Notes: generated by a model from the letters alone, not told the origin. Positions 7,554 through 46,488 are shown, counted from the first letter of the stretch. The stretch: DNA of 64,000 nucleotides from Candidatus Sysuimicrobium tengchongense (GCA_031460175.1 JAVKGW010000004.1:59303-123302), one strand, 5' to 3'. Program-made: numbers and translations.

Positions 7554-8327
7554 ATGCCGTTCACCGTGGAGGACTTCCAGGATCTCCTCCGGCTGCTGGA
7601 ACAACAGCCCCACTGGAAGAGTGCCCTGAGGGCGGCTCTGCTGGGCGAGGAGTTCCTGCAGCTCCCCGTCCTGGTCCGGGACCTGGTGGAAGCCCAGCGG
7701 CGCACCGAAGAGGAGTTGCGGCGGCTCGCGGACGCCCAGCGACGCACGGAGGAGCGGCTGGAGCGTCTGGAGCAGGCGGTGGCTCAGCTCGCGGAAGCCC
7801 AGCGGCGCACGGAGGAGCGACTGGAGCGCCTGGAGCAGGTGGTGGCTCAGCTCGCGGAAGCCCAGCGACGCACGGAGGAGACCGTGCGAACCCTTGTTCG
7901 GGAGGTCGGGGCGCTCAAGGGCGAGACTCTGGAGCGCCGCTACCGGGAGAGGGCTGCGAGCTACTTCCAGCGGATCCTCCGTCGCATCCGGGTGGTGGAT
8001 CACCAGCAGCTGGGACTGCTCCTGGACGATGCGCTGGACGCCGGCCACATCAGCCCGGAGGAGCGGGCGGACGTGCTGGAAGCGGACGTGGTGGCGGTGG
8101 GGCTTCGAGACGGCGAGGAGGTGTACCTCCTGGCGGAGGTCTCCGGTACGGTGACCGCCCATGACGTCCGACGTGCCCGGCGCAGGGCCGAGGTCCTGCA
8201 GCGGGCCGTGGGAAGGCCGGTCTTGAGCGCGGTCGCCGGAGAAGTCCTCTCCGACGATCCGGAGACGCTGGCAGAGGCCATGCAGGTGTGGCGCGTCCTG
8301 GACGGTCGGGCCGACCCCCCGGTTTAA
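7554..8327 (+). CDS. Hypothetical coiled-coil protein with tandem 21-aa repeats and a C-terminal restriction-endonuclease-like (Uma2/DUF820-like?) region
   Basis: The translation contains the repeats AQRRTEERLERLEQ[A/V]VAQLAE, then a C-terminal block ...EADVVAVGLRDGEEVYLLAEVSGTVTAHD... A TACAAT box lies 9 nt upstream of the ATG. Confidence 0.6.
   Translation: MPFTVEDFQDLLRLLEQQPHWKSALRAALLGEEFLQLPVLVRDLVEAQRRTEEELRRLADAQRRTEERLERLEQAVAQLAEAQRRTEERLERLEQVVAQLAEAQRRTEETVRTLVREVGALKGETLERRYRERAASYFQRILRRIRVVDHQQLGLLLDDALDAGHISPEERADVLEADVVAVGLRDGEEVYLLAEVSGTVTAHDVRRARRRAEVLQRAVGRPVLSAVAGEVLSDDPETLAEAMQVWRVLDGRADPPV
7691..7885 (+). repeat. In-frame 63-bp tandem repeat, about 3 copies (gcccagcgRcgcacggaggagcgRctggagcgYctggagcaggYggtggctcagctcgcggaa)
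   Basis: Near-identical 63-nt units appear at about 7733-7795 and 7796-7858, with diverged or partial copies on either side. They encode the 21-aa coiled-coil repeat. Confidence 0.8.
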
Positions 8328-36146: not shown

Positions 36147-38375
36147 CTACCGCTCCGTGACCGTGACCCCGGCGGTGGCCTGGGCACCCCCCGGGCTCCA
36201 GGCGGTCACCGTGATCACGTACCGGGCTCCCAGAAACCCCAGGGGAGAGCCCACGGTGAGGCGAAAGGTCCCGTCCGGTCCTGCCGAGAGCCACTCATCC
36301 CGGAGGAGCACGGGCGTGGCCCCCCCTTCCAGGGTGACGACAACCCGCACCCGGCTTCCGGGCGTGGTCTTCCCCGCCACCTCGAAGGGGGAGGAGACGG
36401 AATCCCCTGCCGCTGGGGCGTGGAGTTTGACCACGTGCCCCGACCCCTCCTCCGGGCCCGTCCGGCCCGCGGGGCCCGGCTCCCCAGGGGCGGGGACCCC
36501 TTCGGGACGCGGGAAGTCCACCGGAGGCCGGTTGACGAGGGCCTCCCTCATGAACCGGGCCCACAGGCGGGCGGGGACGGTCCCTCCCACCACCCCGCGC
36601 ATGGGGGTGTTGTCGTCGTTGCCCACCCACACCGCCGCCACGAGATCCGGGGTGTAGCCCACGAACCAGGCGTTGCGGTAGTCGTCCGTGGTCCCGGTCT
36701 TCCCCGCGGCCGGACGTCCGATGTCCGCGGCGCGTCCGGTTCCCCGGAGGATCACCCCCCGGAGGATGTCCGTCATGGTGTACGCCACCTCCGGTCGGAG
36801 AGCGAGACGGCGCTCCGGGCTGAACTCGTCCAGCACGCGGCCCGCGGCGTCCGTCACCCGGATGATGGCCATGGGCTGGGCGTGAACGCCGTTGGCCGCC
36901 AGGGTGCCGTAGGCGGAGGCCATCTCCAGCACCGTGACCTCCGAGGTGCCCAAGGCGAGGGAGAGGTTGGGTCGGAGGTCGCTCTGGATCCCCATGCGGC
37001 GGGCGGTCTCGATCACCGCCTGCGGTCCCAACTCCGCCAGCACCCGGACCGCGGGCACGTTCCGGGAGTGCTCCACCGCCCGACGGAGGGAGAGGGGACC
37101 CCAGTATGTCCGGTCGTAGTTCTTCGGCTGCCACTCTCCGAATCCCGGGACGCGGTAGCGGACGGGCTCATCCCGGAGGATGTCCTCCGGGGAGGCCCCA
37201 TGTTCCAGGGCGGTCACGTAAATGAAGGGCTTGAAGGCGCTTCCGGGCTGACGGCGCGCCTGCCAAGCCCGGTTGAACTGCGACCGGTGAAAGTCCACGC
37301 CGCCCACCATGGCCTTGATGTGGCCGGTACGCGGATCCAAGGCAACAAGGGCTCCCTGGGAGACCCTGCTTCCCCGGGCTTCCGCGATGCCCTGCGCGAT
37401 GATCCGCTGGGCCAGCTCCTGGAGGCGCACGTCCAGGGTGGTGTAGACCCGCAGACCCCCCCGGTACACCCGTTCCTCCCCGTACCTCTGGAGGAGAAAG
37501 GGGAGGAGATAGGAGACGAAGTACGGGGCGCGGATTCCCACCAGGCCTGCGTTGACCGGGGTCCGGCGAAGCCCCAGGGGAGCCCGCAGGGCGGCCTGCG
37601 CTTGCTCCTCGGAGAGGAAGCCCACCTCCACCATCTTGCGCAGCACCTGCTCCTGCCGGCGTTTGGCGGCTGGGAAGTTCCGGAAAGGATCGTAGCGGGA
37701 GGGGGCCTGGATCAGCCCGGCCAGCAAGCTCGCCTCTGGTAGACCGAGTTCTCCCACCCTCCGGTTGAAGTACACCTGGGCCGCCATCTCCACCCCGTAG
37801 GCGCCGTTCCCGAAGTACACCTGGTTCAGGTAGCGCTCCAGGATCTCGTCCTTGGTGAGGTGGCGCTCCATCTCCAGGGCGAGCAGCATCTCGTGCAGCT
37901 TCCGGGTCAGGGTGCGCTCGGGGGTCAGGAACAGGGTGCGGGCCAACTGCTGGGTGATGGTGCTCCCCCCCTCCAGGATCCGGTTCCGGGTGAGGTTCAC
38001 CCAGAGGGCCCGCGCCACCCCGATGGCGTCCACGCCACGGTGCCGGTAGAACCGCTCGTCCTCGATGGCGATCACCGCCTGCTGCAGGACCCGGGGGATG
38101 GCGGAGAGGGGCACGTAGACGCGGTTCTCGCGGTAAAGGCTCGCGATGAGCTCCCCGTTGGCCGCGTAGATGCGGGTGGCCTGGCTTGGCGGGTGGTAAA
38201 GGACGGAGACATCCGGGAGGGAGGCCCGAGCCGCCAGGAGCAGGGCGGCCACCCCCGCGAGGGACGCCACGGAGAGACTCGCGAGCAGGGCCGAACCCAC
38301 CACCACCCATCGGGCTCTCCCCCGAGGCCGCCTTCGGGAGGACCGGCCATGGCCCTTCATCCGGAACCTCCTCAC
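36147..38375 (-). CDS. Class A penicillin-binding protein (transglycosylase + transpeptidase, PBP1A-type) with a C-terminal β-rich extension
   Basis: The transglycosylase motif EDERFYRHRGVD, the transpeptidase motifs SAFKP and KTG, and an N-terminal TM anchor are present. Confidence 0.9.
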   Translation of the reverse strand: MRRFRMKGHGRSSRRRPRGRARWVVVGSALLASLSVASLAGVAALLLAARASLPDVSVLYHPPSQATRIYAANGELIASLYRENRVYVPLSAIPRVLQQAVIAIEDERFYRHRGVDAIGVARALWVNLTRNRILEGGSTITQQLARTLFLTPERTLTRKLHEMLLALEMERHLTKDEILERYLNQVYFGNGAYGVEMAAQVYFNRRVGELGLPEASLLAGLIQAPSRYDPFRNFPAAKRRQEQVLRKMVEVGFLSEEQAQAALRAPLGLRRTPVNAGLVGIRAPYFVSYLLPFLLQRYGEERVYRGGLRVYTTLDVRLQELAQRIIAQGIAEARGSRVSQGALVALDPRTGHIKAMVGGVDFHRSQFNRAWQARRQPGSAFKPFIYVTALEHGASPEDILRDEPVRYRVPGFGEWQPKNYDRTYWGPLSLRRAVEHSRNVPAVRVLAELGPQAVIETARRMGIQSDLRPNLSLALGTSEVTVLEMASAYGTLAANGVHAQPMAIIRVTDAAGRVLDEFSPERRLALRPEVAYTMTDILRGVILRGTGRAADIGRPAAGKTGTTDDYRNAWFVGYTPDLVAAVWVGNDDNTPMRGVVGGTVPARLWARFMREALVNRPPVDFPRPEGVPAPGEPGPAGRTGPEEGSGHVVKLHAPAAGDSVSSPFEVAGKTTPGSRVRVVVTLEGGATPVLLRDEWLSAGPDGTFRLTVGSPLGFLGARYVITVTAWSPGGAQATAGVTVTER

Positions 38376-38501
38376 AGGATCCCACGCGTCCCCATGGTAC
38401 CAAACAATTCCGACGCCTACCCGGCCCGAAGAGGGGACGAGAGGACTGGCACGGGAGTTGCTTGCAGCGGGAGTGAGGGGATGAGCACGGAACGCACTCC
38501 C

Positions 38502-38577
<76 letters not shown>

Positions 38578-38738
38578 ACGCCGCCCGTGATTTTACCGAA
38601 CCCGCGGGAATCCCGCAACGCCCCGGAACAACCCGTCCTGAGTTCCCGTTAGCAAGGAAGGTGCGGACGAGCTTCGCGGATCCCTTGCCCTCCGTGGTAT
38701 GCTGGGGGCTTGGTGAGAGCCGGGAGGAGGCGGACACC

Positions 38739-39755
38739 ATGAATCCTTCTGCCGCGCAGCTGGTCACCCTGAACGCTCCTCGCCTGGAGCGTCATCCTGA
38801 GAACCCCATCCTCCAGCCCACCACCCACTGGTGGGAGTGCCGGTGGGTGTTCAACCCCGGGGCCGCGGTCCACCGGGGGCGGGTGCACCTCCTGTACCGG
38901 GCCCAGGGGGAGGACTGGATCTCCCGGTTCGGGCTGGCCATCTTGGAGGAGGATGGGGTCCGGGTCGCGTACCGGAGCCCCCTTCCAGTGTTCGAGCCGG
39001 ACGTGAACAACCCCTGGGAACGGCTGGGGGTAGAGGATCCCCGGATCACCCGCATCGCGGATCAGTACTACGTGTGCTACACCGCCGCGAGCCTCTACCC
39101 GGCCCTCAAGCCCAGAACTTACCGGCGGCCGAGCCCCTTTGGGGACACTGGGGTACCGTGGCGTACCCGGATCGCCATCGCCACCACCCGGGACTTCCGG
39201 AACTTCCGGCGACGGGGAATCGCCTTCGGGCAGTGGGAGAACAAGAACGGCGCCCTCTTCCCCACCCGGTTCGAGGGCCGGTACCTGCTGCTCCACCGGA
39301 TCTTCCCGGACATCCACCTGGGATCGAGCAAGGACCTACGCCACTGGCACAACTACGGGCCCCTCCTCCGACCCCGGCCCGGTATGTGGGACAGCAACCG
39401 GGTAGGCGCAGGAGGCCCACCCCTCCGGACCCCGTACGGGTGGCTTCTGATCTACCACGGGGTGGACGAAAACCGGGTCTACCGGCTCGGCGCGGCCCTC
39501 CTGGATCTTCACAACCCCCGACGGGTTCTGGGCCGTTCCACGGAACCCATCCTGGAACCCGAGGAGCCGTACGAGCGGGAGGGACTGGTGCCCAACGTGG
39601 TCTTCACCTGCGGAGCGGTGTTCTACCGAGGCCGGCTCATGGTCTATTACGGGGGTGCGGACCGGGTGGTGGCTGTGGCCTCCGTCCCCACGGGGAGGAT
39701 CCTGACCTGGGCTCGGGAGGTGGCCCTTCGCGCTCAGCGGGACGGCCGGGTCTAA
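38739..39755 (+). CDS. GH130 family glycoside phosphorylase/hydrolase (β-mannoside phosphorylase-like)
   Basis: The ATG at 38739 is preceded by GGGAGGAGG. The translation reads ...ERHPENPILQP...NPGAAVHRGRVHLLYRAQG...EDPRITRIADQYYVCYTA. Confidence 0.8.
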   Translation: MNPSAAQLVTLNAPRLERHPENPILQPTTHWWECRWVFNPGAAVHRGRVHLLYRAQGEDWISRFGLAILEEDGVRVAYRSPLPVFEPDVNNPWERLGVEDPRITRIADQYYVCYTAASLYPALKPRTYRRPSPFGDTGVPWRTRIAIATTRDFRNFRRRGIAFGQWENKNGALFPTRFEGRYLLLHRIFPDIHLGSSKDLRHWHNYGPLLRPRPGMWDSNRVGAGGPPLRTPYGWLLIYHGVDENRVYRLGAALLDLHNPRRVLGRSTEPILEPEEPYEREGLVPNVVFTCGAVFYRGRLMVYYGGADRVVAVASVPTGRILTWAREVALRAQRDGRV

Positions 39756-39757
39756 GC

Positions 39758-40792
39758 TCAGCGCCCTTCCCGCAGGACCCGCTCGTAGGCCCGGAGGTGG
39801 TCCTGCACCATCCGTCGGGCGCTGAACCGTTCCTCCACCCACGCGCGGCAGGCCTCCCGGGAGAGCTCCCGGACCCGCCCGACCGCCTCCACAGCCCCTT
39901 CCAGGTCCTCCACCACGAAGCCCGTGCGGCCGTGGGCCACGACTTCCGGGACCGCGCCCCGTCGGGTGCCGATCACCGGGAGGCCGCATGCCATGGCCTC
40001 GATCATGGTGAGCCCGAAGGCCTCCTCGTATTCCACCAAGTGCAGAAAGGCCAGGGCCTGGCAGCTGAGCCGGTTGCGCTCCTGGGCGGTTACGGGGCCG
40101 ATGAACCGAACGAGGTCCCCGTCCAGGTAGGGCTCTACCTCCTGCGCGAAGTAGGCCTCTTCCTCCGGCGGCACGATCCCCCCGATGACCAGGGGGATCC
40201 GGGTTCGCCGCGCGAGGGCGATGGCGGTGTGCACCCCCTTCACCCGGGCGATCCGTCCCACGAAGAGCAGGAAGTCGCCCGGGGTGTCGCTGAAGGGGAA
40301 GCGCTCCACCTCCACCCCGTGGTGGATGGTGGCCACGTAGCGGAGCTCCGGGAGGAGACGGCGCTCCGCGTGGCTGACGGCGATGTAGGGAAGGTGGCGG
40401 AAGGACCGGTAGAGGACCGCGCTGTCGGGTTCCGCGCCTGAGCCGTGGAGGGTGGTCACCACGGGTCTCGGCACGAAGGGCGTGTACGAGACCACGAAGG
40501 AGCCCGCGTGGTTGTGCACGAGGTCAAAGGCCTCCGCCTGCTCCAGACACCGCACCGCGTGCAGGATCTCATACCCCCGCGCGGCCCGCCGGAGCTCGGG
40601 ATCCTCCATAAGGGGACGGGGGACGACGCTCTCCAGTCTCGCCCGCGTGAGGGAGTCCCCGGTGGCGAACAGCGTGACCTCCACCCCGGCCCGGACCAAT
40701 CCCTCCACCAGGGTGCTGGTGGCCTGCTCCCACCCCCCGTAGTGCCGGGGCGGGCACCGCCAGGCGATGGGCGCGAGGACGGCCACCCGCAT
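39758..40792 (-). CDS. GT4 family glycosyltransferase
   Basis: The C-terminal E-x7-E block (EAFGLTMIEAMACGLPVI) is present. Confidence 0.8.
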   Translation of the reverse strand: MRVAVLAPIAWRCPPRHYGGWEQATSTLVEGLVRAGVEVTLFATGDSLTRARLESVVPRPLMEDPELRRAARGYEILHAVRCLEQAEAFDLVHNHAGSFVVSYTPFVPRPVVTTLHGSGAEPDSAVLYRSFRHLPYIAVSHAERRLLPELRYVATIHHGVEVERFPFSDTPGDFLLFVGRIARVKGVHTAIALARRTRIPLVIGGIVPPEEEAYFAQEVEPYLDGDLVRFIGPVTAQERNRLSCQALAFLHLVEYEEAFGLTMIEAMACGLPVIGTRRGAVPEVVAHGRTGFVVEDLEGAVEAVGRVRELSREACRAWVEERFSARRMVQDHLRAYERVLREGR

Positions 40793-41776
40793 CTAGGCCT
40801 GCAGGCTCAGGGCGGCCAGGAGATAGGCGAGGCACGCCTCGGCTCCGCAGTTCTCGTTGGGGCCTCCGGGGCCGAGGCCGTCCCGGCAGGCTCCGTCCTC
40901 ATCCACGAGAGGCACCCCCAGGAGGTTCTCCCCCAGGAACCATCCCCATGCACGGAGCGCGGCCTCCCGATACCACGGACGTCCCGTCCACCGCCACGCC
41001 TCCATACATGCCTCCACCAATGCCCCGGGATCCACCGGCTGCTGATCCCAGCGGGCCTTGCGTCCTCCCCGCGGATACCACCCTCGGTTCCCGACCGGGA
41101 CCACGATCCCGTCCTCCATCACCACCTCCAGGAGGAAGTCCAGGGTACGCAGGGCCGCATGGGCCCACTCCCCGCGGAGGTGGGCCGCCCGCAGCAGGGC
41201 CAGGGGAACCCGACCCAGCTCGTACGTGAGCACCGGCTCCGGCCACGGCCAGTCCTCCGGGGTGTCCCGCATCTGCCGGTAGAGGGCTTGACCGACTTCC
41301 TCCGCCGCATCCTCAACCCCCGCAGCCAGCAGGCCCAGCAGGGCATTGGCCCGACCGCGACAGGTGCGGAGGCTCCGGACGGTGAACAGAGATCGCCCGA
41401 ACAGCGTCTGCGCCGCCCGTCGCAGGGGGTCCGGCAGGGGCGAAACGATGGTCTCGCCCAGGGCCCACACGCACCGGCCCTGGCAGTCCTCCGAGACCTC
41501 ACAGGCGAGCGGACGACCATCCCCATCCCACAGGTTGTGGAACCACCCGTCGGGCCGCAGGCTACGGGCCAGGAAGTCCAGATAGATCCGGCCCAGCTCC
41601 ACCTGGCCGATCCGGGCCGCCACCACCAGGCCCCGCGCGTTGTCGTCCGCGGTGTAGCCGCTCCCTCGGTCCGGCCGCTTGCCCCGGGCGAACTGGATGA
41701 GCCCGAAGGCGTCCGTGAGGCGTCTCAGGTGAACCCACCGGACCGCTACGAGCGTGGTCCGCTCCGTCCGGCCCAT
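40793..41776 (-). CDS. Hypothetical protein, possibly an (α/α)6 six-hairpin glycosidase-like fold
   Basis: The ORF is 327 aa and Trp-rich, with no firm family match. It is tightly packed between two GT4 genes. Confidence 0.5.
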   Translation of the reverse strand: MGRTERTTLVAVRWVHLRRLTDAFGLIQFARGKRPDRGSGYTADDNARGLVVAARIGQVELGRIYLDFLARSLRPDGWFHNLWDGDGRPLACEVSEDCQGRCVWALGETIVSPLPDPLRRAAQTLFGRSLFTVRSLRTCRGRANALLGLLAAGVEDAAEEVGQALYRQMRDTPEDWPWPEPVLTYELGRVPLALLRAAHLRGEWAHAALRTLDFLLEVVMEDGIVVPVGNRGWYPRGGRKARWDQQPVDPGALVEACMEAWRWTGRPWYREAALRAWGWFLGENLLGVPLVDEDGACRDGLGPGGPNENCGAEACLAYLLAALSLQA

Positions 41777-41785
41777 GGGTCCGCC

Positions 41786-42967
41786 CTACACCGCCGCCTC
41801 CACCTGCACCTGCCGCGCGACTTCCTGGAAGAGGGCCGCGTACGCTTGAGCCACCACGGACCAGCGCATCTGCTGGGCGAACCGCCAGGTCCGCTCCCCG
41901 ATCCGCTCCCGCCGGTCCGGATCCGAGAGGAGGTCGGTCACCGCGGCCGCGATGGCGGCAGGCGACCGGAAGGGCACGAGAACCCCGCGGCCGTCCCCGA
42001 GCACGTCCTGCGCGTAACGGTACGGGGTGCTCACCACCGCGCACCCGCACGCCAGCGCCCAGGAGAGGGTGCCGCTCACGATCTGCTCGGGGTTGAGATA
42101 GGGAGTGAGGTAGACGTCCGTGGCCTGAAGATACCCGATGAGCTCCTCGTCTCCCATGTAGCGGTTCTCGAACCGCACCAGGTCCCCGATCCCCAGGCGC
42201 TGCACCCGCTCCACCAGCATGTTCCGGTACCACTCCCCCTCCCGGCGCCGCAGGTTCGGGTGGGTTTCCCCCAGCACCAGGTACAGCACGTTCGGGAAGA
42301 CCCGGGCCACGGAAGGCAGGGCGTCCAGAACGTCCTCGATGCCTTTGCCGGGGCTCACCAACCCGAAGGTGGTGAGTACCCACCGATCCTCCAGACCCAG
42401 CCGCGCCTTCGCCTCCGACCGGGGAACCCTCTCCACCGCGGGGACTCCGTGCCAGATCATGCGCACCCGACTGCGGGACACCCCGTATCGCTCCTCGAGG
42501 AGATCCACCGCGGAGGGGCTCAGGACCACCACGGCCGCGGAGCGGCGGCAAAGGGTCCGGATGATCTGTCGGGCCCTGGCCGGCGGATTCGAGAGCACCG
42601 TGTGAAGGGTGGTCACCACGGGACGCTCCAGATGATCCAGGAGCTCCAGCAGGTCCTCCCCCCACTCTCCCCCGAAGATCCCGAACTCGTGCTGGATGTT
42701 CACCACGTCCACCCGCTCCCGGTTGAGACGCAACGCCGCGGAGCGGTAGTCCTCCCGGCAGTTCTCCCGGATCTCCCCCATCACCTCCGGGCCGTACCGG
42801 TACGGCCCGTTCTCATCGTTCATGGCCACCACCCTGGGGCACACCCCCAGCTCCCGCAGCCCGCGGGCGAGGTCCCGGCTGAAGGTGGCGATCCCGCACT
42901 CCCGGGGAGGATAGGTGGAGAGGATGACGACGTTCAGACGGTCTTGATTCTCCCGCGCGTTGCGCAC
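41786..42967 (-). CDS. GT4 family glycosyltransferase
   Basis: The GTG at 42967 is preceded by AAGGAGGTGA. The N-terminal ~200 aa of ORF 41786..43582 are artefactual. Confidence 0.8.
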   Translation of the reverse strand: MRNARENQDRLNVVILSTYPPRECGIATFSRDLARGLRELGVCPRVVAMNDENGPYRYGPEVMGEIRENCREDYRSAALRLNRERVDVVNIQHEFGIFGGEWGEDLLELLDHLERPVVTTLHTVLSNPPARARQIIRTLCRRSAAVVVLSPSAVDLLEERYGVSRSRVRMIWHGVPAVERVPRSEAKARLGLEDRWVLTTFGLVSPGKGIEDVLDALPSVARVFPNVLYLVLGETHPNLRRREGEWYRNMLVERVQRLGIGDLVRFENRYMGDEELIGYLQATDVYLTPYLNPEQIVSGTLSWALACGCAVVSTPYRYAQDVLGDGRGVLVPFRSPAAIAAAVTDLLSDPDRRERIGERTWRFAQQMRWSVVAQAYAALFQEVARQVQVEAAV

Positions 42968-43245
42968 ATCTCTCACCTCCTTTGCGAACCGAGTCCGTAG
43001 CCTCGAGTGCCGCAGCGAAGGTGGTGCGACGTCACGCGGGGCCGCGGGCGAAAAGCCCTCTGTCCACTGGAGCGGCCCCCATGGACCGGCCTTGGACAGA
43101 TTGAGACGCGTCTTTAGTATACCGAAATGGTGGCCCGATGGCCACGGAAGGAGGAGAGCACAGAATCGTCGAACATCTTCCCGGGTGATGGATGGCACAC
43201 GCGGCCGACACCAGGTCCTGCTGGATGCGAAAGGAGGAGCGTCCG

Positions 43246-44271
43246 GTGCGGGTCTGCGTGTATTACGAGTACCGTCCCTCCCTTCTTCCCAGTGGCGGGA
43301 TTCGCACCGCATACCGGAACCACATGGAGGCGCTGCGTCTGGCCGGGGTTGAGATCGCCCTCCGGCCCCGAGACCCGCACGACCTCCTGCACCTCCACTC
43401 CACGGGTCCTCTCTCCCTGCTGCTCCTGGAGCGCACCGCGGGCACGCGGCCCGTGGTGGTACACGCCCACACCACCGCGGAGGACTTCGCGAACTCTTTC
43501 CGGTTGAGCGATGCAGTGGCGCCCATGCTGGGACGCTACCTCCGGTACTTCTACAACCGGGCGGACCTCGTGATCGCCCCAAGCCCCTACACGGCCCGGA
43601 TCCTCCGACGGCATGGCGTGGAGGCGCCCGTGGAGGTGGTGAGCAACGGGGTGGACGTGCGACGGTTCACCCCGGATCCCCGGCGGCGCATCCGGGGCCG
43701 GTCCCGGTATCGCCTCAACGGCTTCGTGGTGTTCGCGGTGGGATTGGTGCTCCTGCGTAAGGGGATCGAGCTCTTCTGCGAGACCGCGAGGCGGGTGCCG
43801 GAGGTTCGATTCGTGTGGTTCGGTCCCATCCACAAGGCGGTGAAGTCCGAGACCCTGAGGGTCCTGGAGCGGGCACCCGAGAACGTCCGGTTCACGGGGT
43901 ACGTGGAGAACGTGCTGGACGCTTACGCCGCGGGGGATGTCTTCTTCTTCCCCAGCGCGGTGGAGAATGAAGGGATCGCGGTGCTGGAGGCAGCCGCCTG
44001 CGGAAAGCCCCTCCTGCTGCGCGCGGTGGACTGCTTCCGCGACCGGTTCGCCCACGGGGTGAACTGCCTAATGGCCAACGACCCGGATGCCTTCGCCGCG
44101 TACATCCGCCAGCTCCGGGACGACCCCGAACTCCGGGAACGGCTCGCGCGGCAGGCCCGGGCCTTCGCGGAGCAGCACCGGCTGGAAGTGGTGGGCATCC
44201 GGCTACGGGACCTGTACCAGGACCTGCTCCTCCAGCGCACGGGCGCCCCCCGCGCGAACCCGGTTCCCTGA
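43246..44271 (+). CDS. GT4 family glycosyltransferase
   Basis: I prefer the GTG at 43246, 6 nt after AAGGAGGAG, giving VRVCVYYEY... The alternative ATG is at 43225. The translation includes EGIAVLEAAACGKPLL. Confidence 0.75.
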   Translation: MRVCVYYEYRPSLLPSGGIRTAYRNHMEALRLAGVEIALRPRDPHDLLHLHSTGPLSLLLLERTAGTRPVVVHAHTTAEDFANSFRLSDAVAPMLGRYLRYFYNRADLVIAPSPYTARILRRHGVEAPVEVVSNGVDVRRFTPDPRRRIRGRSRYRLNGFVVFAVGLVLLRKGIELFCETARRVPEVRFVWFGPIHKAVKSETLRVLERAPENVRFTGYVENVLDAYAAGDVFFFPSAVENEGIAVLEAAACGKPLLLRAVDCFRDRFAHGVNCLMANDPDAFAAYIRQLRDDPELRERLARQARAFAEQHRLEVVGIRLRDLYQDLLLQRTGAPRANPVP

Positions 44272-44280
44272 GGCCGGCAC

Positions 44281-45771
44281 CTATGCGGATCGGAGCACGA
44301 GGGAGGTGTTCCCCTTCTGGATGGCCACGTACCGCACCTGAGGCTGCGCGCTCAGGCGCTCCAACAGCACGGCCAGGGAGTTCCGGGAGGCCCCGGCCGC
44401 CCGGCCGCCGTTCCCCTTCACCCCCTGTACCTCTCCCTCCCCCTTCATGATGCAGTGCAGGAGCAGGGTCTCCTCGTCCGCGTGCACCATTCCCAGCTTC
44501 TGCCGGACCACCTCCAGGGGGGCCTCTTCCTCCTCCCGCAGCGCCTCCAACTGGGCGGCGATCTCCCGCGCCCGGGCCCGTCCGAGGATCCGATCCTTCA
44601 CCTCCGGATCCATCCAGGTGTACCCCGAGTCTTCCCCAAAGGCCCCGAGGGCGAACCGGATCACCTCGTCCGTCACCAGCTGGTATCGCTCCCCCGTCAG
44701 CACGTTCAGAGCCGCCTGTGTGGCCACGTGCTGGGAGTAGGGCGTGATCATGATGGGGTACCCGAGGTCTGCCCGGACCCGCACGATCTCCTCCAGGACT
44801 TCCTGCAACCGGTGCTCCATGCGCAGCTCCCGCAGCTGGAACCGCAGGTTGGAGATGACCCCTCCCGGGACCTGGTGCACGTACTGGCCGTAGTCGTACT
44901 CCAAGGGCATCCCCACGGGCCTCCCCTCCCTTCGGGCGAACGCCCACAGCCGCTCCGAAGCCGCCCGCACCGCCTCCTCCTTTACCCGCACCGGCACTCC
45001 CACATACCGGGCGTTGTGCATCACGTTGAACACGGAGGGCTGCGAGGACCCGTTCGCGAGGGGCGGGATGGCGGTGTGCACGACCCGGACTCCCAGCTGA
45101 ATGGCCTCCAGATAGCAGAGGGGCGCGAGCCCCGTGGTGCAGTGCGAGTGGAGCTCCACCGGGACATCCCCCGCGGCCTCCAGGATGGCGGGCAGCAGGG
45201 TCCGGACCCGGTCCGGCGTGAGGAGTCCCCCCTGATCCTTGAGGTAGATGGCATCCGGTTTGAAGGCCAAGAGCTCCCGGGTCTTCTCCGCGTAATACGC
45301 ATCCGTGTGCCGGGGGGAGAGGGTGTACGAGAGGGCGAAGACGATCTGGTAGTTCAGGGATCGCAGGAAGGGGACCAGCCACGGGAAGAGCCGTTTGGGC
45401 TGGTCCATGGTGTTGGCCGTGAGCTGGGCCCGGTTCAACGCCCCGAGGGCCGCCACCCGCTCGAAGAACAGCATGGTCAGGCAGCGGGGATTGACACCCG
45501 CGAAGGGGTTGAGGCTCACGGCGCCCATGCACGCCTTGGTCACGTCCCGGAGGACCCGTGCCACCACCCGACACATCTCCCACGGATCCTCCCGGAGATC
45601 CCGTACGAACTTCTTGAAGTAAATGGGATTTACCGGCACCTCCACCGCCTGGAACTCCGCCCGGACCAGATCCTCCGCCACCTCCGCGATGAGCCGCGTG
45701 GGGATGTCGGAGGCCCACAGGCTTTGGGCTCCGTCCCGAAGCGTCGTGTCCACAAGCCGTACCGGATCCAT
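44281..45771 (-). CDS. Carboxyltransferase (5S subunit-like) of the pyruvate carboxylase subunit B / oxaloacetate decarboxylase alpha family, lacking a biotinyl (AMKM) domain
   Basis: The N-terminus is MDPVRLVDTTLRDGAQSLWAS, a TIM-barrel carboxyltransferase, followed by the PYC_OADA-like region. The C-terminus has no AMKM biotin attachment motif. Confidence 0.7.
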   Translation of the reverse strand: MDPVRLVDTTLRDGAQSLWASDIPTRLIAEVAEDLVRAEFQAVEVPVNPIYFKKFVRDLREDPWEMCRVVARVLRDVTKACMGAVSLNPFAGVNPRCLTMLFFERVAALGALNRAQLTANTMDQPKRLFPWLVPFLRSLNYQIVFALSYTLSPRHTDAYYAEKTRELLAFKPDAIYLKDQGGLLTPDRVRTLLPAILEAAGDVPVELHSHCTTGLAPLCYLEAIQLGVRVVHTAIPPLANGSSQPSVFNVMHNARYVGVPVRVKEEAVRAASERLWAFARREGRPVGMPLEYDYGQYVHQVPGGVISNLRFQLRELRMEHRLQEVLEEIVRVRADLGYPIMITPYSQHVATQAALNVLTGERYQLVTDEVIRFALGAFGEDSGYTWMDPEVKDRILGRARAREIAAQLEALREEEEAPLEVVRQKLGMVHADEETLLLHCIMKGEGEVQGVKGNGGRAAGASRNSLAVLLERLSAQPQVRYVAIQKGNTSLVLRSA

Positions 45772-45780
45772 CCTCCTCCC

Positions 45781-46488
45781 TCAAACCGCAAGATAGGCCT
45801 GCTTCAGCGACTCGTCCCCCAGGAGGGCCTCGTACGTGCCCTGGAACTGTACCTGACCCTTGTCCAGGATGTAGATCCTCGAGCTGAGGCCCGCGGCGAA
45901 CCATAGGTTCTGCTCGGAGAGCAGGATCGCCAGTCCCGTCTCCTTGAGCTTCCGGACCTGTTCCCAGAGGGCCTGGACCACCAAAGGGGCCAGGCCCTCG
46001 GAAGGCTCGTCGAGCAGCAGGATCCTGGGATCCCCCATGAGGGCACGGGCGATGGCCAGCATCCGCTGTTCTCCCCCGCTGAGGGATCGGCCGGGCCGGT
46101 TCTGCAAGGGCTCCAAGGCGGGGAAGAGCTCGAAGATCTTCTCCACCGTCCACCCTTGGCCGCCCCGGGCTTGGGGGCGTCCCTCCGCGCCCACCAGCAG
46201 GTTCTCCAGAACCGTCAACCCGGGGAAGATGCGGCGGTCCTCCGGCACGTACCCGATCCCCATGCGCCGGATGGTATGGGGGGGACGCCCGACCAGGTTC
46301 TGCCCGCGGAAGAGGATGCGCCCTTCCACCTGCGGGACCAGGCCCATGATGGACTTCAGGGTGGTGCTCTTGCCGGCCCCGTTCCGTCCCAGGAGGCACA
46401 CGACTTCTCCTTCCTGGACGGAGAGGGCCACGTCCTGGAGAACCCAGCCGTGGCCATACCCCGCGAACACCCGCTCCAGCACCAGCAT
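45781..46488 (-). CDS. Branched-chain amino acid ABC transporter ATP-binding protein (LivF-like)
   Basis: The Walker A motif GRNGAGKST and the LSGGEQ signature are present. Confidence 0.85.
   Translation of the reverse strand: MLVLERVFAGYGHGWVLQDVALSVQEGEVVCLLGRNGAGKSTTLKSIMGLVPQVEGRILFRGQNLVGRPPHTIRRMGIGYVPEDRRIFPGLTVLENLLVGAEGRPQARGGQGWTVEKIFELFPALEPLQNRPGRSLSGGEQRMLAIARALMGDPRILLLDEPSEGLAPLVVQALWEQVRKLKETGLAILLSEQNLWFAAGLSSRIYILDKGQVQFQGTYEALLGDESLKQAYLAV

What the first reader, a model, noticed from the sequence alone, without database searches (positions are those of the whole stretch)
38739..44271. tRNA-Ala-flanked glycan locus: GH130 phosphorylase, three GT4 glycosyltransferases and a Trp-rich six-hairpin-like unknown
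A GH130 (β-mannoside phosphorylase family) gene is divergently paired with a tightly packed GT4 / unknown / GT4 block. Those are separated by 0-9 nt, and all have strong SDs. A further divergent GT4 sits across a 278-bp regulatory spacer. A phosphorylase combined with retaining GTs suggests synthesis and salvage of a mannose-containing glycolipid, glycan or compatible solute. The 40793..41776 protein has no family assignment. Its location immediately 5' of tRNA-Ala marks it as a possible accessory island.
Basis: partly seen in the sequence, partly recalled or inferred. Interest (0 to 1): 0.5.

Follow-up and report, generated by a model that had tools for sequence, protein, structure and literature searches.

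The report
Conserved mannoside cassette with unknown six-hairpin enzyme
The locus is a stable chromosomal copy of a four-gene sugar-metabolism cassette found across Bacteria and Archaea; its core is an uncharacterised glycosyltransferase paired (in many lineages fused) with an unannotated six-hairpin barrel protein, next to a beta-mannoside phosphorylase, and it is not a mobile island.

Summary
The unknown (UNK, 40793-41776) is a confident (alpha/alpha)6 barrel.

- **Corrections.** GH130 and the GT4 block are convergent, not divergent. Only three of the five genes have a strong SD. The third GT4 (GT4C) is an unrelated neighbour. The tRNA-Ala "island" idea fails.
- **Main result.** UNK and the upstream GT4 (GT4B) form a conserved pair. 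They are adjacent in almost all of 85 related loci and fused into one ~750-820 aa protein in about half. The family has at least 4,900 representatives at 50% identity, no Pfam or NCBIfam model, and no characterised member.
- **Partners of the pair.** They are GH130 (55% of loci), GT108 (the Leishmania mannogen enzyme family), GDP-mannose pyrophosphorylase-type genes, and a homologue of glucosylsucrose synthase (GT4A here).
- **Link to known work.** The same GT4B-UNK pair is Teth514_1786/1785, beside the characterised Thermoanaerobacter beta-1,2-mannoside phosphorylases.
- **Best reading (inferred).** The cassette makes and phosphorolytically recycles a soluble cytoplasmic mannose-containing oligosaccharide. 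UNK's reaction is unknown.

The parts
38502..38577 (-). tRNA-Ala(CGC). It is flanking context, not part of the module and not an integration site.
   Evidence: Found by ARAGORN and Rfam (68.1 bits). It sits in the same position in relatives L083 and L084. No att-like repeat of it occurs in 38300-46000.
38739..39755 (+). GH130 enzyme, phosphorylase-type, closest to the beta-1,2-mannoside phosphorylases. It is convergent with the GT4A-UNK-GT4B operon.
   Evidence: Pfam PF04041, E 1.2e-63. PDB 9fj8 (Teth514_1788), E 4e-69, 46% identity; 7fip (Teth514_1789), E 2e-61. NCBIfam beta-1,2-mannobiose phosphorylase scores 285 bits, below the 450 cut-off. D100, R158, R187, H240 and D308 are conserved in at least 90% of 47 module-linked GH130s. 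SD GGGAGGAGG lies upstream.
39758..40792 (-). GT4A, a homologue of glucosylsucrose synthase TeGSS (a UDP-Glc alpha-1,2-glucosyltransferase), with a different acceptor rim.
   Evidence: PDB 7fg9/8x3q, E 4e-81, full length, 42% identity. TeGSS residues Y18, R179, K184 and E256 are conserved. W10, Y70, Y97, R117, T119, N122 and W254 are mostly not. Present in 20 of 85 related loci.
40793..41776 (-). UNK, an (alpha/alpha)6 barrel protein of an unannotated family. It is the obligate partner, and in many lineages the C-terminal domain, of GT4B.
41786..42967 (-). GT4B, a GT4 retaining glycosyltransferase and orthologue of Teth514_1786. It is the first gene of the GT4B-UNK-GT4A operon. Its donor is probably GDP-mannose (inferred).
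   Evidence: GT4-type Pfam families. 42% identity, E 7e-118, to the Thermoanaerobacter gene. Lies immediately upstream of UNK, or fused to it, in almost all related loci. Starts at GTG 42967 with AAAGGAGG 8 nt upstream, giving 393 aa as in L083.
42968..43245 (.). Divergent promoter spacer between GT4B and GT4C.
   Evidence: One sigma-70-like hexamer pair on each strand (- 43144..43116; + 43093..43120): 2 found, 0.3 expected.
43246..44271 (+). GT4C, a neighbouring glycosyl-diacylglycerol-synthase-like GT4. It is not part of the conserved module.
   Evidence: Best NCBIfam hits are IagA/BgsA at 270.6 bits (cut-off 460) and Dgs at 211.6 bits (cut-off 500). Found only in L083 and L084, and in no other related locus. 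SD AAAGGAGG lies before GTG 43246.

Best explanation
The locus is a core-chromosome copy of a widespread cytoplasmic cassette. It is the same gene set as Teth514_1785-1789 of Thermoanaerobacter.

**Operon (shown).** GT4B, UNK and GT4A form one tightly packed operon (gaps of 9 and 0 nt) read from a promoter in the 278-bp spacer. GH130 is read convergently from its own start.

**Mechanism (inferred).**
- GT4B, a retaining GT4 that probably uses GDP-mannose, works as a two-component enzyme with UNK. UNK is an (alpha/alpha)6 domain whose invariant D44-D45, R48, R101, D299 and near-invariant E313 line the usual six-hairpin active site.
- I take UNK to be a glycoside hydrolase or transglycosylase that trims, releases or re-primes the GT4B product.
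- GT4A, of the glucosylsucrose-synthase type, adds alpha-linked hexose to a non-sucrose acceptor.
- GH130 interconverts beta-mannosyl units with alpha-mannose-1-phosphate.

Together they would build and phosphorolytically recycle a soluble mannose-containing oligosaccharide that serves as a reserve or stress protectant. GT4C next door is an independent glycolipid-synthase-like gene.
For: **Shown**
- Family assignments.
- UNK fold.
- GT4B-UNK adjacency holds in almost all of 85 loci from more than 20 phyla. They are fused in 45-47 loci, and about 40 of the best 150 family representatives are full-length fusions. P0110 is a further fusion.
- Partners within +/-8 kb: GH130 in 47 of 85 loci (18 directly downstream, 9 with a 4-nt overlap); GT4A in 20; Man-1-P guanylyltransferase-type genes in 17.
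- Paenibacillaceae-type locus L085 replaces GH130 with a GT108/DUF1861 homologue of the Leishmania mannogen MTPs (E 1.6e-49) and carries ManC.
- The Thermoanaerobacter loci L088 and L090 carry GH130-GH130-NTP_transferase-GT4B-UNK. This matches the cluster in PMC4264767, whose GH130s are proven beta-1,2-mannoside phosphorylases.
- All four module proteins lack TM segments and signal peptides.
- Teth514_1785-1787 is co-transcribed and was among 16 genes induced by 6% ethanol (PMC3751872).
- Glucosylsucroses made by TeGSS are stress solutes (PMC9909042).
Against: - No member of the GT4B or UNK families has been assayed. Donor, acceptor and product are all inferred from neighbours.
- GT4 enzymes make alpha linkages and GH130 acts on beta-mannosides, so the two need not act on the same bond.
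- About 45% of loci have no GH130 within 8 kb, so GH130 is accessory to the core.
- The window itself carries no GDP-mannose pyrophosphorylase gene at the locus.
- GH130 scores below NCBIfam's equivalog cut-off (285 vs 450), and GT4A's acceptor-rim residues differ from TeGSS, so specificities may differ.
- UNK could be a non-catalytic binding domain.
- UNK is also fused to a Gfo/Idh/MocA oxidoreductase and to an alpha/beta hydrolase in other proteins. The model does not explain these fusions.
Confidence: 0.5

Rival explanations
1. Catabolic salvage, as Chiku et al. proposed for Thermoanaerobacter. Imported beta-1,2-mannosides are phosphorolysed by GH130 to Man-1-P, which is turned into GDP-mannose. 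GT4B (with UNK) then spends the GDP-mannose on an unrelated glycoconjugate.
For: The Thermoanaerobacter cluster also carries an ABC sugar transporter and a GH5. Characterised GH130 phosphorylases mostly sit in catabolic loci (PMC7660257).
Against: The window and most related loci have no sugar transporter or secreted glycosidase among recurrent neighbours. The invariant unit is GT4B-UNK, not GH130. The ABC transporter near the window locus is of the branched-chain amino-acid type and is not conserved with the module.
Confidence: 0.2
2. Envelope glycoconjugate synthesis. The GT4s build a membrane glycolipid, surface polysaccharide or protein glycan. UNK and GH130 would remodel it.
For: GT4C is glycosyl-diacylglycerol-synthase-like and sits divergently next to GT4B. 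PBP1A lies on the other side. GT4 enzymes commonly serve envelope pathways.
Against: GT4C and PBP1A are not conserved with the module beyond species-level relatives. No flippase, polymerase or polyprenyl-phosphate transferase recurs. All module proteins are predicted soluble. GT4A's closest characterised relative acts on a soluble sugar.
Confidence: 0.15
3. UNK is an AGE-superfamily sugar 2-epimerase or isomerase that feeds GH130, like the cellobiose 2-epimerase plus mannosylglucose phosphorylase pair of mannan catabolism.
Against: The UNK family has no invariant or near-invariant histidine, whereas AGE enzymes use a catalytic His pair (established knowledge). Profile matches to AGE sequences are insignificant (E about 0.09). 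UNK is bound to GT4B, not to GH130.
Confidence: 0.08
4. The locus is a horizontally acquired accessory island inserted at tRNA-Ala.
For: tRNA-Ala lies 161 bp from the GH130 start. In the more distant relative L003 the four genes sit in different flanks.
Against: GC content is flat at 0.67-0.72. There is no integrase and no att-like repeat. Relatives L083 and L084 show identical synteny, including the tRNA.
Confidence: 0.03

Closest known systems
Thermoanaerobacter sp. X-514 cluster Teth514_1785-1789 (Chiku et al. 2014, PMC4264767)
   Same: It has the same gene families: GH130 beta-1,2-mannoside phosphorylase(s), the GT4B orthologue (42% identity, E 7e-118) followed by the UNK homologue (33% identity, E 9e-62). 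GT4B and UNK are co-transcribed there.
   Different: The window has one GH130, and it is convergent. It has no Man-1-P guanylyltransferase, ABC transporter or GH5. It has an extra TeGSS-like GT4A. Only the GH130s of that cluster were ever assayed; Teth514_1785 was left as 'hypothetical'.
Leishmania mannogen system (GT108 MTPs; Sernee et al. 2019, via PMC10913872 and PMC8950772)
   Same: It is cytosolic beta-1,2-mannoside synthesis and phosphorolysis by five-bladed propeller enzymes. A bacterial GT108 homologue replaces GH130 next to GT4B-UNK in L085.
   Different: No GT4-(alpha/alpha)6 partner is described for mannogen. No bacterial or archaeal mannogen-like polymer has been shown.
TeGSS/tll1591 glucosylsucrose synthase (PDB 7fg9; PMC9909042)
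   Same: GT4A aligns over its full length at 42% identity, with the UDP-binding and catalytic residues Y18, R179, K184 and E256 conserved.
   Different: The acceptor-rim residues are mostly different. No sucrose-phosphate synthase is adjacent, so the acceptor is probably not sucrose.
Mycobacterial methylmannose-polysaccharide pair ManT (GT4) + MmpH ((alpha/alpha)6 endo-mannosidase) (PMC9883506)
   Different: There is no detectable sequence similarity, no methyltransferases here, and no GH130 in the mycobacterial cluster. This is an analogy, not membership.
Yersinia pestis YPO2471 (PDB 7tem)
   Different: It is annotated as exported, is 427 aa long, and lacks the WPWPE and DQQP motifs. Its function is unknown and no paper was found.
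Cyclic beta-1,2-glucan synthase Cgs (GT84 + (alpha/alpha)6 cyclisation domain + GH94 phosphorylase)
   Different: All three parts belong to different families. In Cgs all three act on one beta-glucan, whereas here the GT is retaining and the phosphorylase acts on beta-mannosides.

Membership tests
GH130 (mannoside phosphorylases/hydrolases) | Match to the family model over the whole propeller domain | tested here: met
   PF04041, E 1.2e-63, 215 bits against a cut-off of 26.
GH130 phosphorylase (as opposed to hydrolase) | Catalytic Asp plus basic phosphate-binding residues retained | tested here: met
   The EDPR Asp (D100), R158, R187 (LHR), H240 (YHG) and GGAD align with Teth514_1788/1789. They are at least 90% conserved in 47 module-linked GH130s. 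Activity was not tested.
beta-1,2-mannobiose phosphorylase equivalog (NCBIfam NF052550) | Score at or above the curated cut-off | tested here: not met
   285.1 bits against a cut-off of 450. 46% identity to Teth514_1788. Linkage specificity remains inferred.
TeGSS alpha-1,2-glucosyltransferase family (GT4A) | Full-length homology with catalytic Y18 and R179 and UDP-contact residues K184 and E256 | tested here: met
   E 4e-81, residues 1-341 of 344, 42% identity. All four residues are conserved.
TeGSS alpha-1,2-glucosyltransferase family (GT4A) | Sucrose/glucosylsucrose acceptor site (rim residues W10, Y70, E74, Y97, R117, T119, N122, W254) | tested here: not met
   Only E74 is kept. W10 becomes A (with a W at the next position) and W254 becomes Y. 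The remaining residues differ.
GT4 (GT4B) | GT-B Glycos_transf_1 and Glyco_transf_4 domains | tested here: met
   PF00534 3.6e-18 and PF13439 8.5e-17.
GDP-mannose-dependent alpha-mannosyltransferase (GT4B) | Use of GDP-Man as donor | not testable with these tools
   Support is contextual only: Man-1-P guanylyltransferase-type neighbours in 17 of 85 loci and in Thermoanaerobacter. The PimA guanine-contact Asp is present in the window protein but not conserved in the family.
Teth514_1785-1789-type cluster | GT4B orthologue followed by a UNK homologue, linked to GH130 | tested here: met
   The gene order GT4 then hypothetical is as in PMC4264767.
(alpha/alpha)6 six-hairpin fold (UNK) | Twelve-helix double barrel | tested here: met
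AGE superfamily epimerases/isomerases (UNK) | Conserved catalytic histidine pair | tested here: not met
   No His appears among the invariant or >=90% conserved columns of 67 sequences. Profile E is about 0.09 to AGE chains.
Any Pfam/NCBIfam glycoside hydrolase family (UNK) | Significant model match | tested here: not met
   The window protein has none. The Thermoanaerobacter homologue only grazes GH88 and GH127 (33 and 30 bits), which is generic six-hairpin similarity.
IagA/BgsA or Dgs glycosyl-diacylglycerol synthases (GT4C) | Score at or above the curated cut-off | tested here: not met
   270.6 against 460, and 211.6 against 500. These are the best-matching clade only.
tRNA-linked genomic island | Integrase, flanking direct repeat of the tRNA end, atypical composition, variable presence among close relatives | tested here: not met
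R. baltica MggB (MGPG phosphatase, 324 aa 'unknown hydrolase' next to GT4 MggA) | HAD-like fold and motifs, rare distribution | tested here: not met
   The paper assigns MggB to the HAD superfamily and reports only 12 homologues. UNK is an (alpha/alpha)6 barrel with thousands of members.

The most novel reading that the evidence does not exclude
GT4B-UNK is a prokaryote-wide bifunctional enzyme: a GT4 mannosyltransferase joined to a founding member of a new six-hairpin glycosidase/transglycosylase family. Together with GH130 or GT108 it would make and recycle an endogenous cytoplasmic beta-1,2-mannoside, a bacterial and archaeal counterpart of Leishmania mannogen or a new stress solute. That would supply the missing physiological substrate of bacterial beta-1,2-mannoside phosphorylases.
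Probability: 0.3. Interest if true: 0.75.

Novelty: new variant of a known kind. Interest (0 to 1): 0.55.

Why it matters
Bacterial beta-1,2-mannoside phosphorylases have been characterised in vitro since 2014. Their authors noted that no natural source of the substrate was known in the organism (PMC4264767).

This analysis shows that those enzymes belong to a cassette spread across Bacteria and Archaea. The constant core of that cassette is an untested GT4 joined to an unannotated (alpha/alpha)6 domain. This gives a concrete, testable route to the endogenous glycan.

It also flags a large protein family for annotation and biochemistry: at least 4,900 representatives at 50% identity, present in cultured Paenibacillus, Pelosinus, Thermocrinis and Thermoanaerobacter. 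PGAP labels many of its members "glycosyltransferase".

Finally, it links the family to the solved but unexplained Yersinia pestis structure 7TEM.

Tried and rejected
- **UNK = MggB** (R. baltica 36-kDa 'unknown hydrolase' next to the GT4 MggA). Rejected: MggB is HAD-like and rare.
- **UNK = AGE-type epimerase.** Rejected on the absence of conserved histidines.
- **PimA guanine-contact Asp as a GDP-donor test on GT4B.** The Asp is present in the window protein but not in the Thermoanaerobacter, L032 or L054 orthologues, so the argument was dropped.
- **Island test.** No att repeats, flat GC and conserved synteny.
- **Supplement of PMC4264767** for the Teth514_1785 annotation: nothing held. I instead rebuilt Teth514_1788 from the PDB alignment and fetched the locus from metagenomes.
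- **Homologue search seeded with the Paenibacillaceae member** to reach Thermoanaerobacter: the top 120 hits were all Paenibacillaceae and relatives.
- **AlphaFold-database fold search:** the library was unavailable.
- **Literature searches** for YPO2471/7TEM and for bacterial GT108 gene clusters: nothing relevant.
- **Defence-system reading.** The GT4-conflict Pfam hits are far below cut-off (16.7 and 18.9 against 26) and were not pursued.
Full report
**1. What is in the sequence**

The region 38.4-44.3 kb of this ~70% GC window holds these genes:

| Feature | Coordinates | Strand |
|---|---|---|
| tRNA-Ala(CGC) | 38502-38577 | - |
| GH130 | 38739-39755 | + |
| GT4A | 39758-40792 | - |
| UNK (unassigned ORF) | 40793-41776 | - |
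| GT4B | 41786-42967 | - |
| GT4C | 43246 (or 43192)-44271 | + |

- The flanks are a PBP1A (36147-38375, -) and a 5S-type carboxyltransferase subunit (44281-45771, -).
- GT4B most likely starts at GTG 42967 and GT4C at GTG 43246. Each is preceded by AAAGGAGG at 7-8 nt.
- The spacer contains one sigma-70-like hexamer pair on each strand, 2 found against 0.3 expected.
- The gaps are 9 nt (GT4B to UNK) and 0 nt (UNK to GT4A).
- UNK and GT4A have no obvious SD, so they are probably translationally coupled. "All have strong SDs" is true for three of five genes.
- GH130 and the GT4A-UNK-GT4B block are convergent, with stop codons 2 nt apart.
- UNK has 14 Trp in 327 residues.

**2. Not an island**

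- GC content is flat across the locus.
- Direct repeats in 38300-46000 are only low-identity chance matches.
- Two metagenome contigs from species-level relatives (L083, L084) keep the full order ruvB-ruvA-ruvC-yebC-PBP1A-tRNA-Ala-GH130-GT4A-UNK-GT4B-GT4C-carboxyltransferase-ABC transporter-tRNA-Pro at 90-97% amino-acid identity.
- In a more distant relative (L003, a Candidatus Sysuimicrobiota MAG) only the four genes GT4B-UNK-GT4A and the convergent GH130 are kept, in other flanks.
- The conserved unit is therefore four genes. GT4C is a neighbour only. It resembles the IagA/BgsA and Dgs glycosyl-diacylglycerol synthases, but scores below their cut-offs.
- The nearest named homologues are "Armatimonadota" and Sysuimicrobiota MAGs.

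**3. The individual proteins**

*GH130.*
- It matches PF04041 (E 1e-63).
- It is closest to the two characterised Thermoanaerobacter enzymes: Teth514_1788, a beta-1,2-oligomannan phosphorylase (PDB 9fj8, E 4e-69, 46% identity), and Teth514_1789, a beta-1,2-mannobiose phosphorylase (7fip).
- The catalytic Asp and the basic and His residues that align with the phosphorylase templates are kept. They are at least 90% conserved in 47 GH130s from related cassettes.
- It scores below NCBIfam's equivalog cut-off (285 against 450), so beta-1,2 specificity is inferred, not shown.
- Enzymes of this subfamily (GH130_6) also show weak GDP-mannose transferase activity (PMC12814180).

*GT4A.*
- It aligns end to end (42% identity, E 4e-81) with TeGSS/tll1591. 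That enzyme is the UDP-glucose:sucrose alpha-1,2-glucosyltransferase that makes the cyanobacterial stress solutes glucosylsucroses.
- Its catalytic and UDP-contact residues are conserved. Most residues of its acceptor rim are not. I expect the same chemistry on a different acceptor.

*GT4B.*
- It is a GT4 with only weak similarity to any solved or curated enzyme.

*UNK.*
- It has no Pfam, NCBIfam or PDB sequence match.
- With a 67-sequence alignment, AlphaFold gives pLDDT 96.2 and pTM 0.93, with a helical-hairpin barrel.
- A family profile finds 7tem by sequence (E 4.6e-25). The two share the DDxAR, RALWAL and DG..N.N.GAEST motifs.
- The invariant family residues are G40, Y41, D44, D45, R48, R101, W178, Q246, W279, N284 and D299. 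D97, E180, Y185, N309 and E313 are at least 90% conserved.
- No histidine is conserved. This argues against an AGE-type epimerase and for carboxylate-based glycosidase or transglycosylase chemistry. That last step is inference.

**4. The main finding: GT4B and UNK are one functional unit**

They include Aquificota, Bacillota, Negativicutes, Acidobacteriota, Planctomycetota, Desulfobacterota, Chloroflexota, Bacteroidota, Eremiobacterota, Proteobacteria, Bathyarchaeia, Woesearchaeota and Asgard archaea.
- An exhaustive HMMER search of 1.84 billion cluster representatives gave 6,613 hits at E<=1e-3 and 4,911 at E<=1e-10.
- Across the related loci fetched, a GT4B orthologue lies immediately upstream of UNK on the same strand in nearly every case.
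- In 45-47 of them the two are a single ORF of about 740-820 aa, with GT4 at the N-terminus and UNK at the C-terminus.
- About 40 of the best 150 family representatives are such full-length fusions. P0110 is another.
- The window carries the split form. Cultured carriers include Thermocrinis albus, Paenibacillus, Cohnella, Pelosinus and Propionispira, where PGAP often names the protein simply "glycosyltransferase".

**5. What travels with the pair**

Clustering all ORFs of the loci gives these recurrent neighbours within +/-8 kb:

| Neighbour | Loci (of 85) | Notes |
|---|---|---|
| Any GH130 | 47 | 37 of 62 loci with at least 3 kb on both sides; 18 directly downstream of UNK; 9 with a 4-nt overlap |
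| Long GH130 paralogue with ~260-aa unassigned N-terminal extension | 13 | |
| GT4A | 20 | |
| Man-1-P guanylyltransferase-type genes | 17 | best NCBIfam hit Man-1-P guanylyltransferase, or ManC/GMP-PMI type |
| CBS-pair protein | 7 | Bathyarchaeia |
| GT4B paralogue | 6 | |
| Glycerophosphodiesterase | 4 | |

- A GH130 gene within 16 kb by chance would be expected in well under 1% of loci. This is my estimate from typical GH130 copy numbers.
- In the Paenibacillaceae-type locus L085 the cassette is GT4B-UNK-ManC-DUF1861. The DUF1861 protein is a clear homologue of the Leishmania mannogen enzymes MTP-1, MTP-2 and MTP-4 (GT108; E 1.6e-49).
- Two unrelated-in-sequence families that both make or phosphorolyse beta-1,2-mannosides thus alternate beside GT4B-UNK. 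This ties the pair to that chemistry.
- None of the four window proteins has a TM segment or signal peptide.
- No transporter, flippase or polyprenyl-phosphate transferase is a recurrent neighbour.

**6. Link to published work**

- Chiku et al. (PMC4264767) placed Teth514_1788 and Teth514_1789 in a cluster with a Man-1-P guanylyltransferase (1787), a predicted GDP-Man alpha-mannosyltransferase (1786) and a hypothetical protein (1785).
- I rebuilt Teth514_1788 from the PDB alignment and fetched metagenome contigs 96-100% identical to it.
- Loci L088 and L090 read GH130-GH130-NTP_transferase-GT4-ORF. The GT4 is the GT4B orthologue (42% identity, E 7e-118). The ORF is a UNK homologue (33% identity, E 9e-62).
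- The window locus is therefore a variant of that cluster, and "hypothetical" Teth514_1785 belongs to the UNK family.
- In an independent RNA-seq study, Teth514_1785-1787 was transcribed as one operon. It was among 16 genes induced, against 1,583 repressed, by 6% ethanol in an adapted strain (PMC3751872). That is the only expression evidence I found, and it points to a stress role.

**7. Mechanism**

*Shown:* the gene families, the fold, the fusion and synteny pattern, the operon packing and the soluble nature of the proteins.

*Inferred:*
- GT4B uses GDP-mannose, judged from neighbours only.
- UNK is a catalytic glycosidase or transglycosylase domain that trims, releases or re-primes the GT4B product.
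- GT4A adds alpha-linked hexose.
- GH130 exchanges beta-mannosyl units with Man-1-P.
- The product is a soluble cytoplasmic oligosaccharide used as a reserve or stress protectant.

*Useful analogies, not memberships:*
- The mycobacterial ManT (GT4) and MmpH ((alpha/alpha)6 endomannosidase) pair, which recycles methylmannose polysaccharide into primers (PMC9883506).
- Cyclic beta-1,2-glucan synthase, which combines a GT, a six-hairpin transglycosylase and a phosphorylase.

*Weak points:*
- Retaining GT4 and inverting GH130 do not obviously act on the same bond.
- GH130 is absent near the pair in about 45% of loci.
- UNK is also fused to a Gfo/Idh/MocA oxidoreductase (P0289; also the neighbouring gene in Thermocrinis) and to an alpha/beta hydrolase (P0341). 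The model does not explain these.

**8. Rivals**

- *Catabolic salvage of imported beta-mannosides* (the 2014 proposal). This fits Thermoanaerobacter's extra transporter and GH5, but not the transporter-less majority of loci.
- *An envelope glycolipid or polysaccharide role.* This rests mainly on GT4C and PBP1A, which are not conserved with the module.
- *An AGE-type epimerase role for UNK.* This fails the histidine test.
- *The island idea.* This fails every test.
- *The MggA/MggB compatible-solute pair.* It looked similar on paper (a GT4 plus a 324-aa "unknown hydrolase"), but MggB is HAD-like and rare.

**9. Verdict**

The glycolipid and island parts are not.
- The locus is a new variant of a known but only partly characterised cluster type.
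- The interest lies in the GT4-(alpha/alpha)6 pair. It is a very large, unannotated, frequently fused family that is systematically linked to beta-1,2-mannoside enzymes. Its product could explain what those phosphorylases act on in vivo.
- Interest 0.55.

Noticed in passing
window 7822-7919 (+): ARAGORN calls a 98-nt 'tRNA-Phe(GAA)' here. Rfam's tRNA model does not report it at gathering score, although it finds the other three tRNAs. It is either a false positive or an atypical or interrupted tRNA.
   Followed up: partly
window 43246-44271 (+): GT4C is closest to the lipoteichoic-acid-anchor and diacylglycerol glycosyltransferases (IagA/BgsA 270 bits, Dgs 212 bits, both below cut-off). This hints at a glycosyl-diacylglycerol lipid in this Armatimonadota/Sysuimicrobiota-like organism.
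   Followed up: partly
window 44281-45771 (-): A stand-alone 5S-type carboxyltransferase subunit (HMGL-like + PYC_OADA, 496 aa). It sits directly upstream of a five-gene branched-chain-amino-acid-type ABC transporter and tRNA-Pro. The arrangement is conserved in L083 and L084.
   Followed up: no
P0289; L001 9041-10075: UNK is fused to a Gfo/Idh/MocA sugar oxidoreductase in P0289. In Thermocrinis albus the gene after GT4B-UNK is a Gfo/Idh/MocA protein. P0341 fuses UNK to an alpha/beta hydrolase (BD-FAE/Abhydrolase_3). These partners are unexplained.
   Followed up: partly
L021 5452-6930 and 12 other loci (e.g. L015 11065-12543): A ~490-aa GH130 paralogue with a ~260-residue N-terminal extension that has no Pfam match. 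It follows GT4A-GH130 in Desulfobacterales, Asgard, Ignavibacteriales and Bacteroidota cassettes.
   Followed up: partly
L005, L006, L013, L014, L025, L034, L035: In Bathyarchaeia cassettes a small CBS-pair protein sits next to the GH130 gene, between UNK and GH130 in most of these loci. It may be a nucleotide-sensing regulator.
   Followed up: no
L089 10001-20325: In one 3-Mb Thermoanaerobacter-like contig the GT4B-UNK pair lies about 7 kb downstream of the two GH130 genes instead of directly after the nucleotidyltransferase. Something has been inserted into the cluster.
   Followed up: no
L007, L045, L049, L051, L059, L060: In Brocadiaceae, Phycisphaerae and Hydrogenedentes loci the fused GT4B-UNK is followed by a second GT4 with the same N-terminal SxYPPxxCGIATF motif, a GT4B paralogue, instead of GH130.
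   Followed up: no
L088 5334-6383: The Thermoanaerobacter UNK homologue just passes Pfam's cut-offs for GH88, GH127-cat and C5-epimerase C-terminal (33, 30 and 29 bits), whereas the window protein hits none. Automatic annotation of this family is therefore likely to be inconsistent.
   Followed up: no
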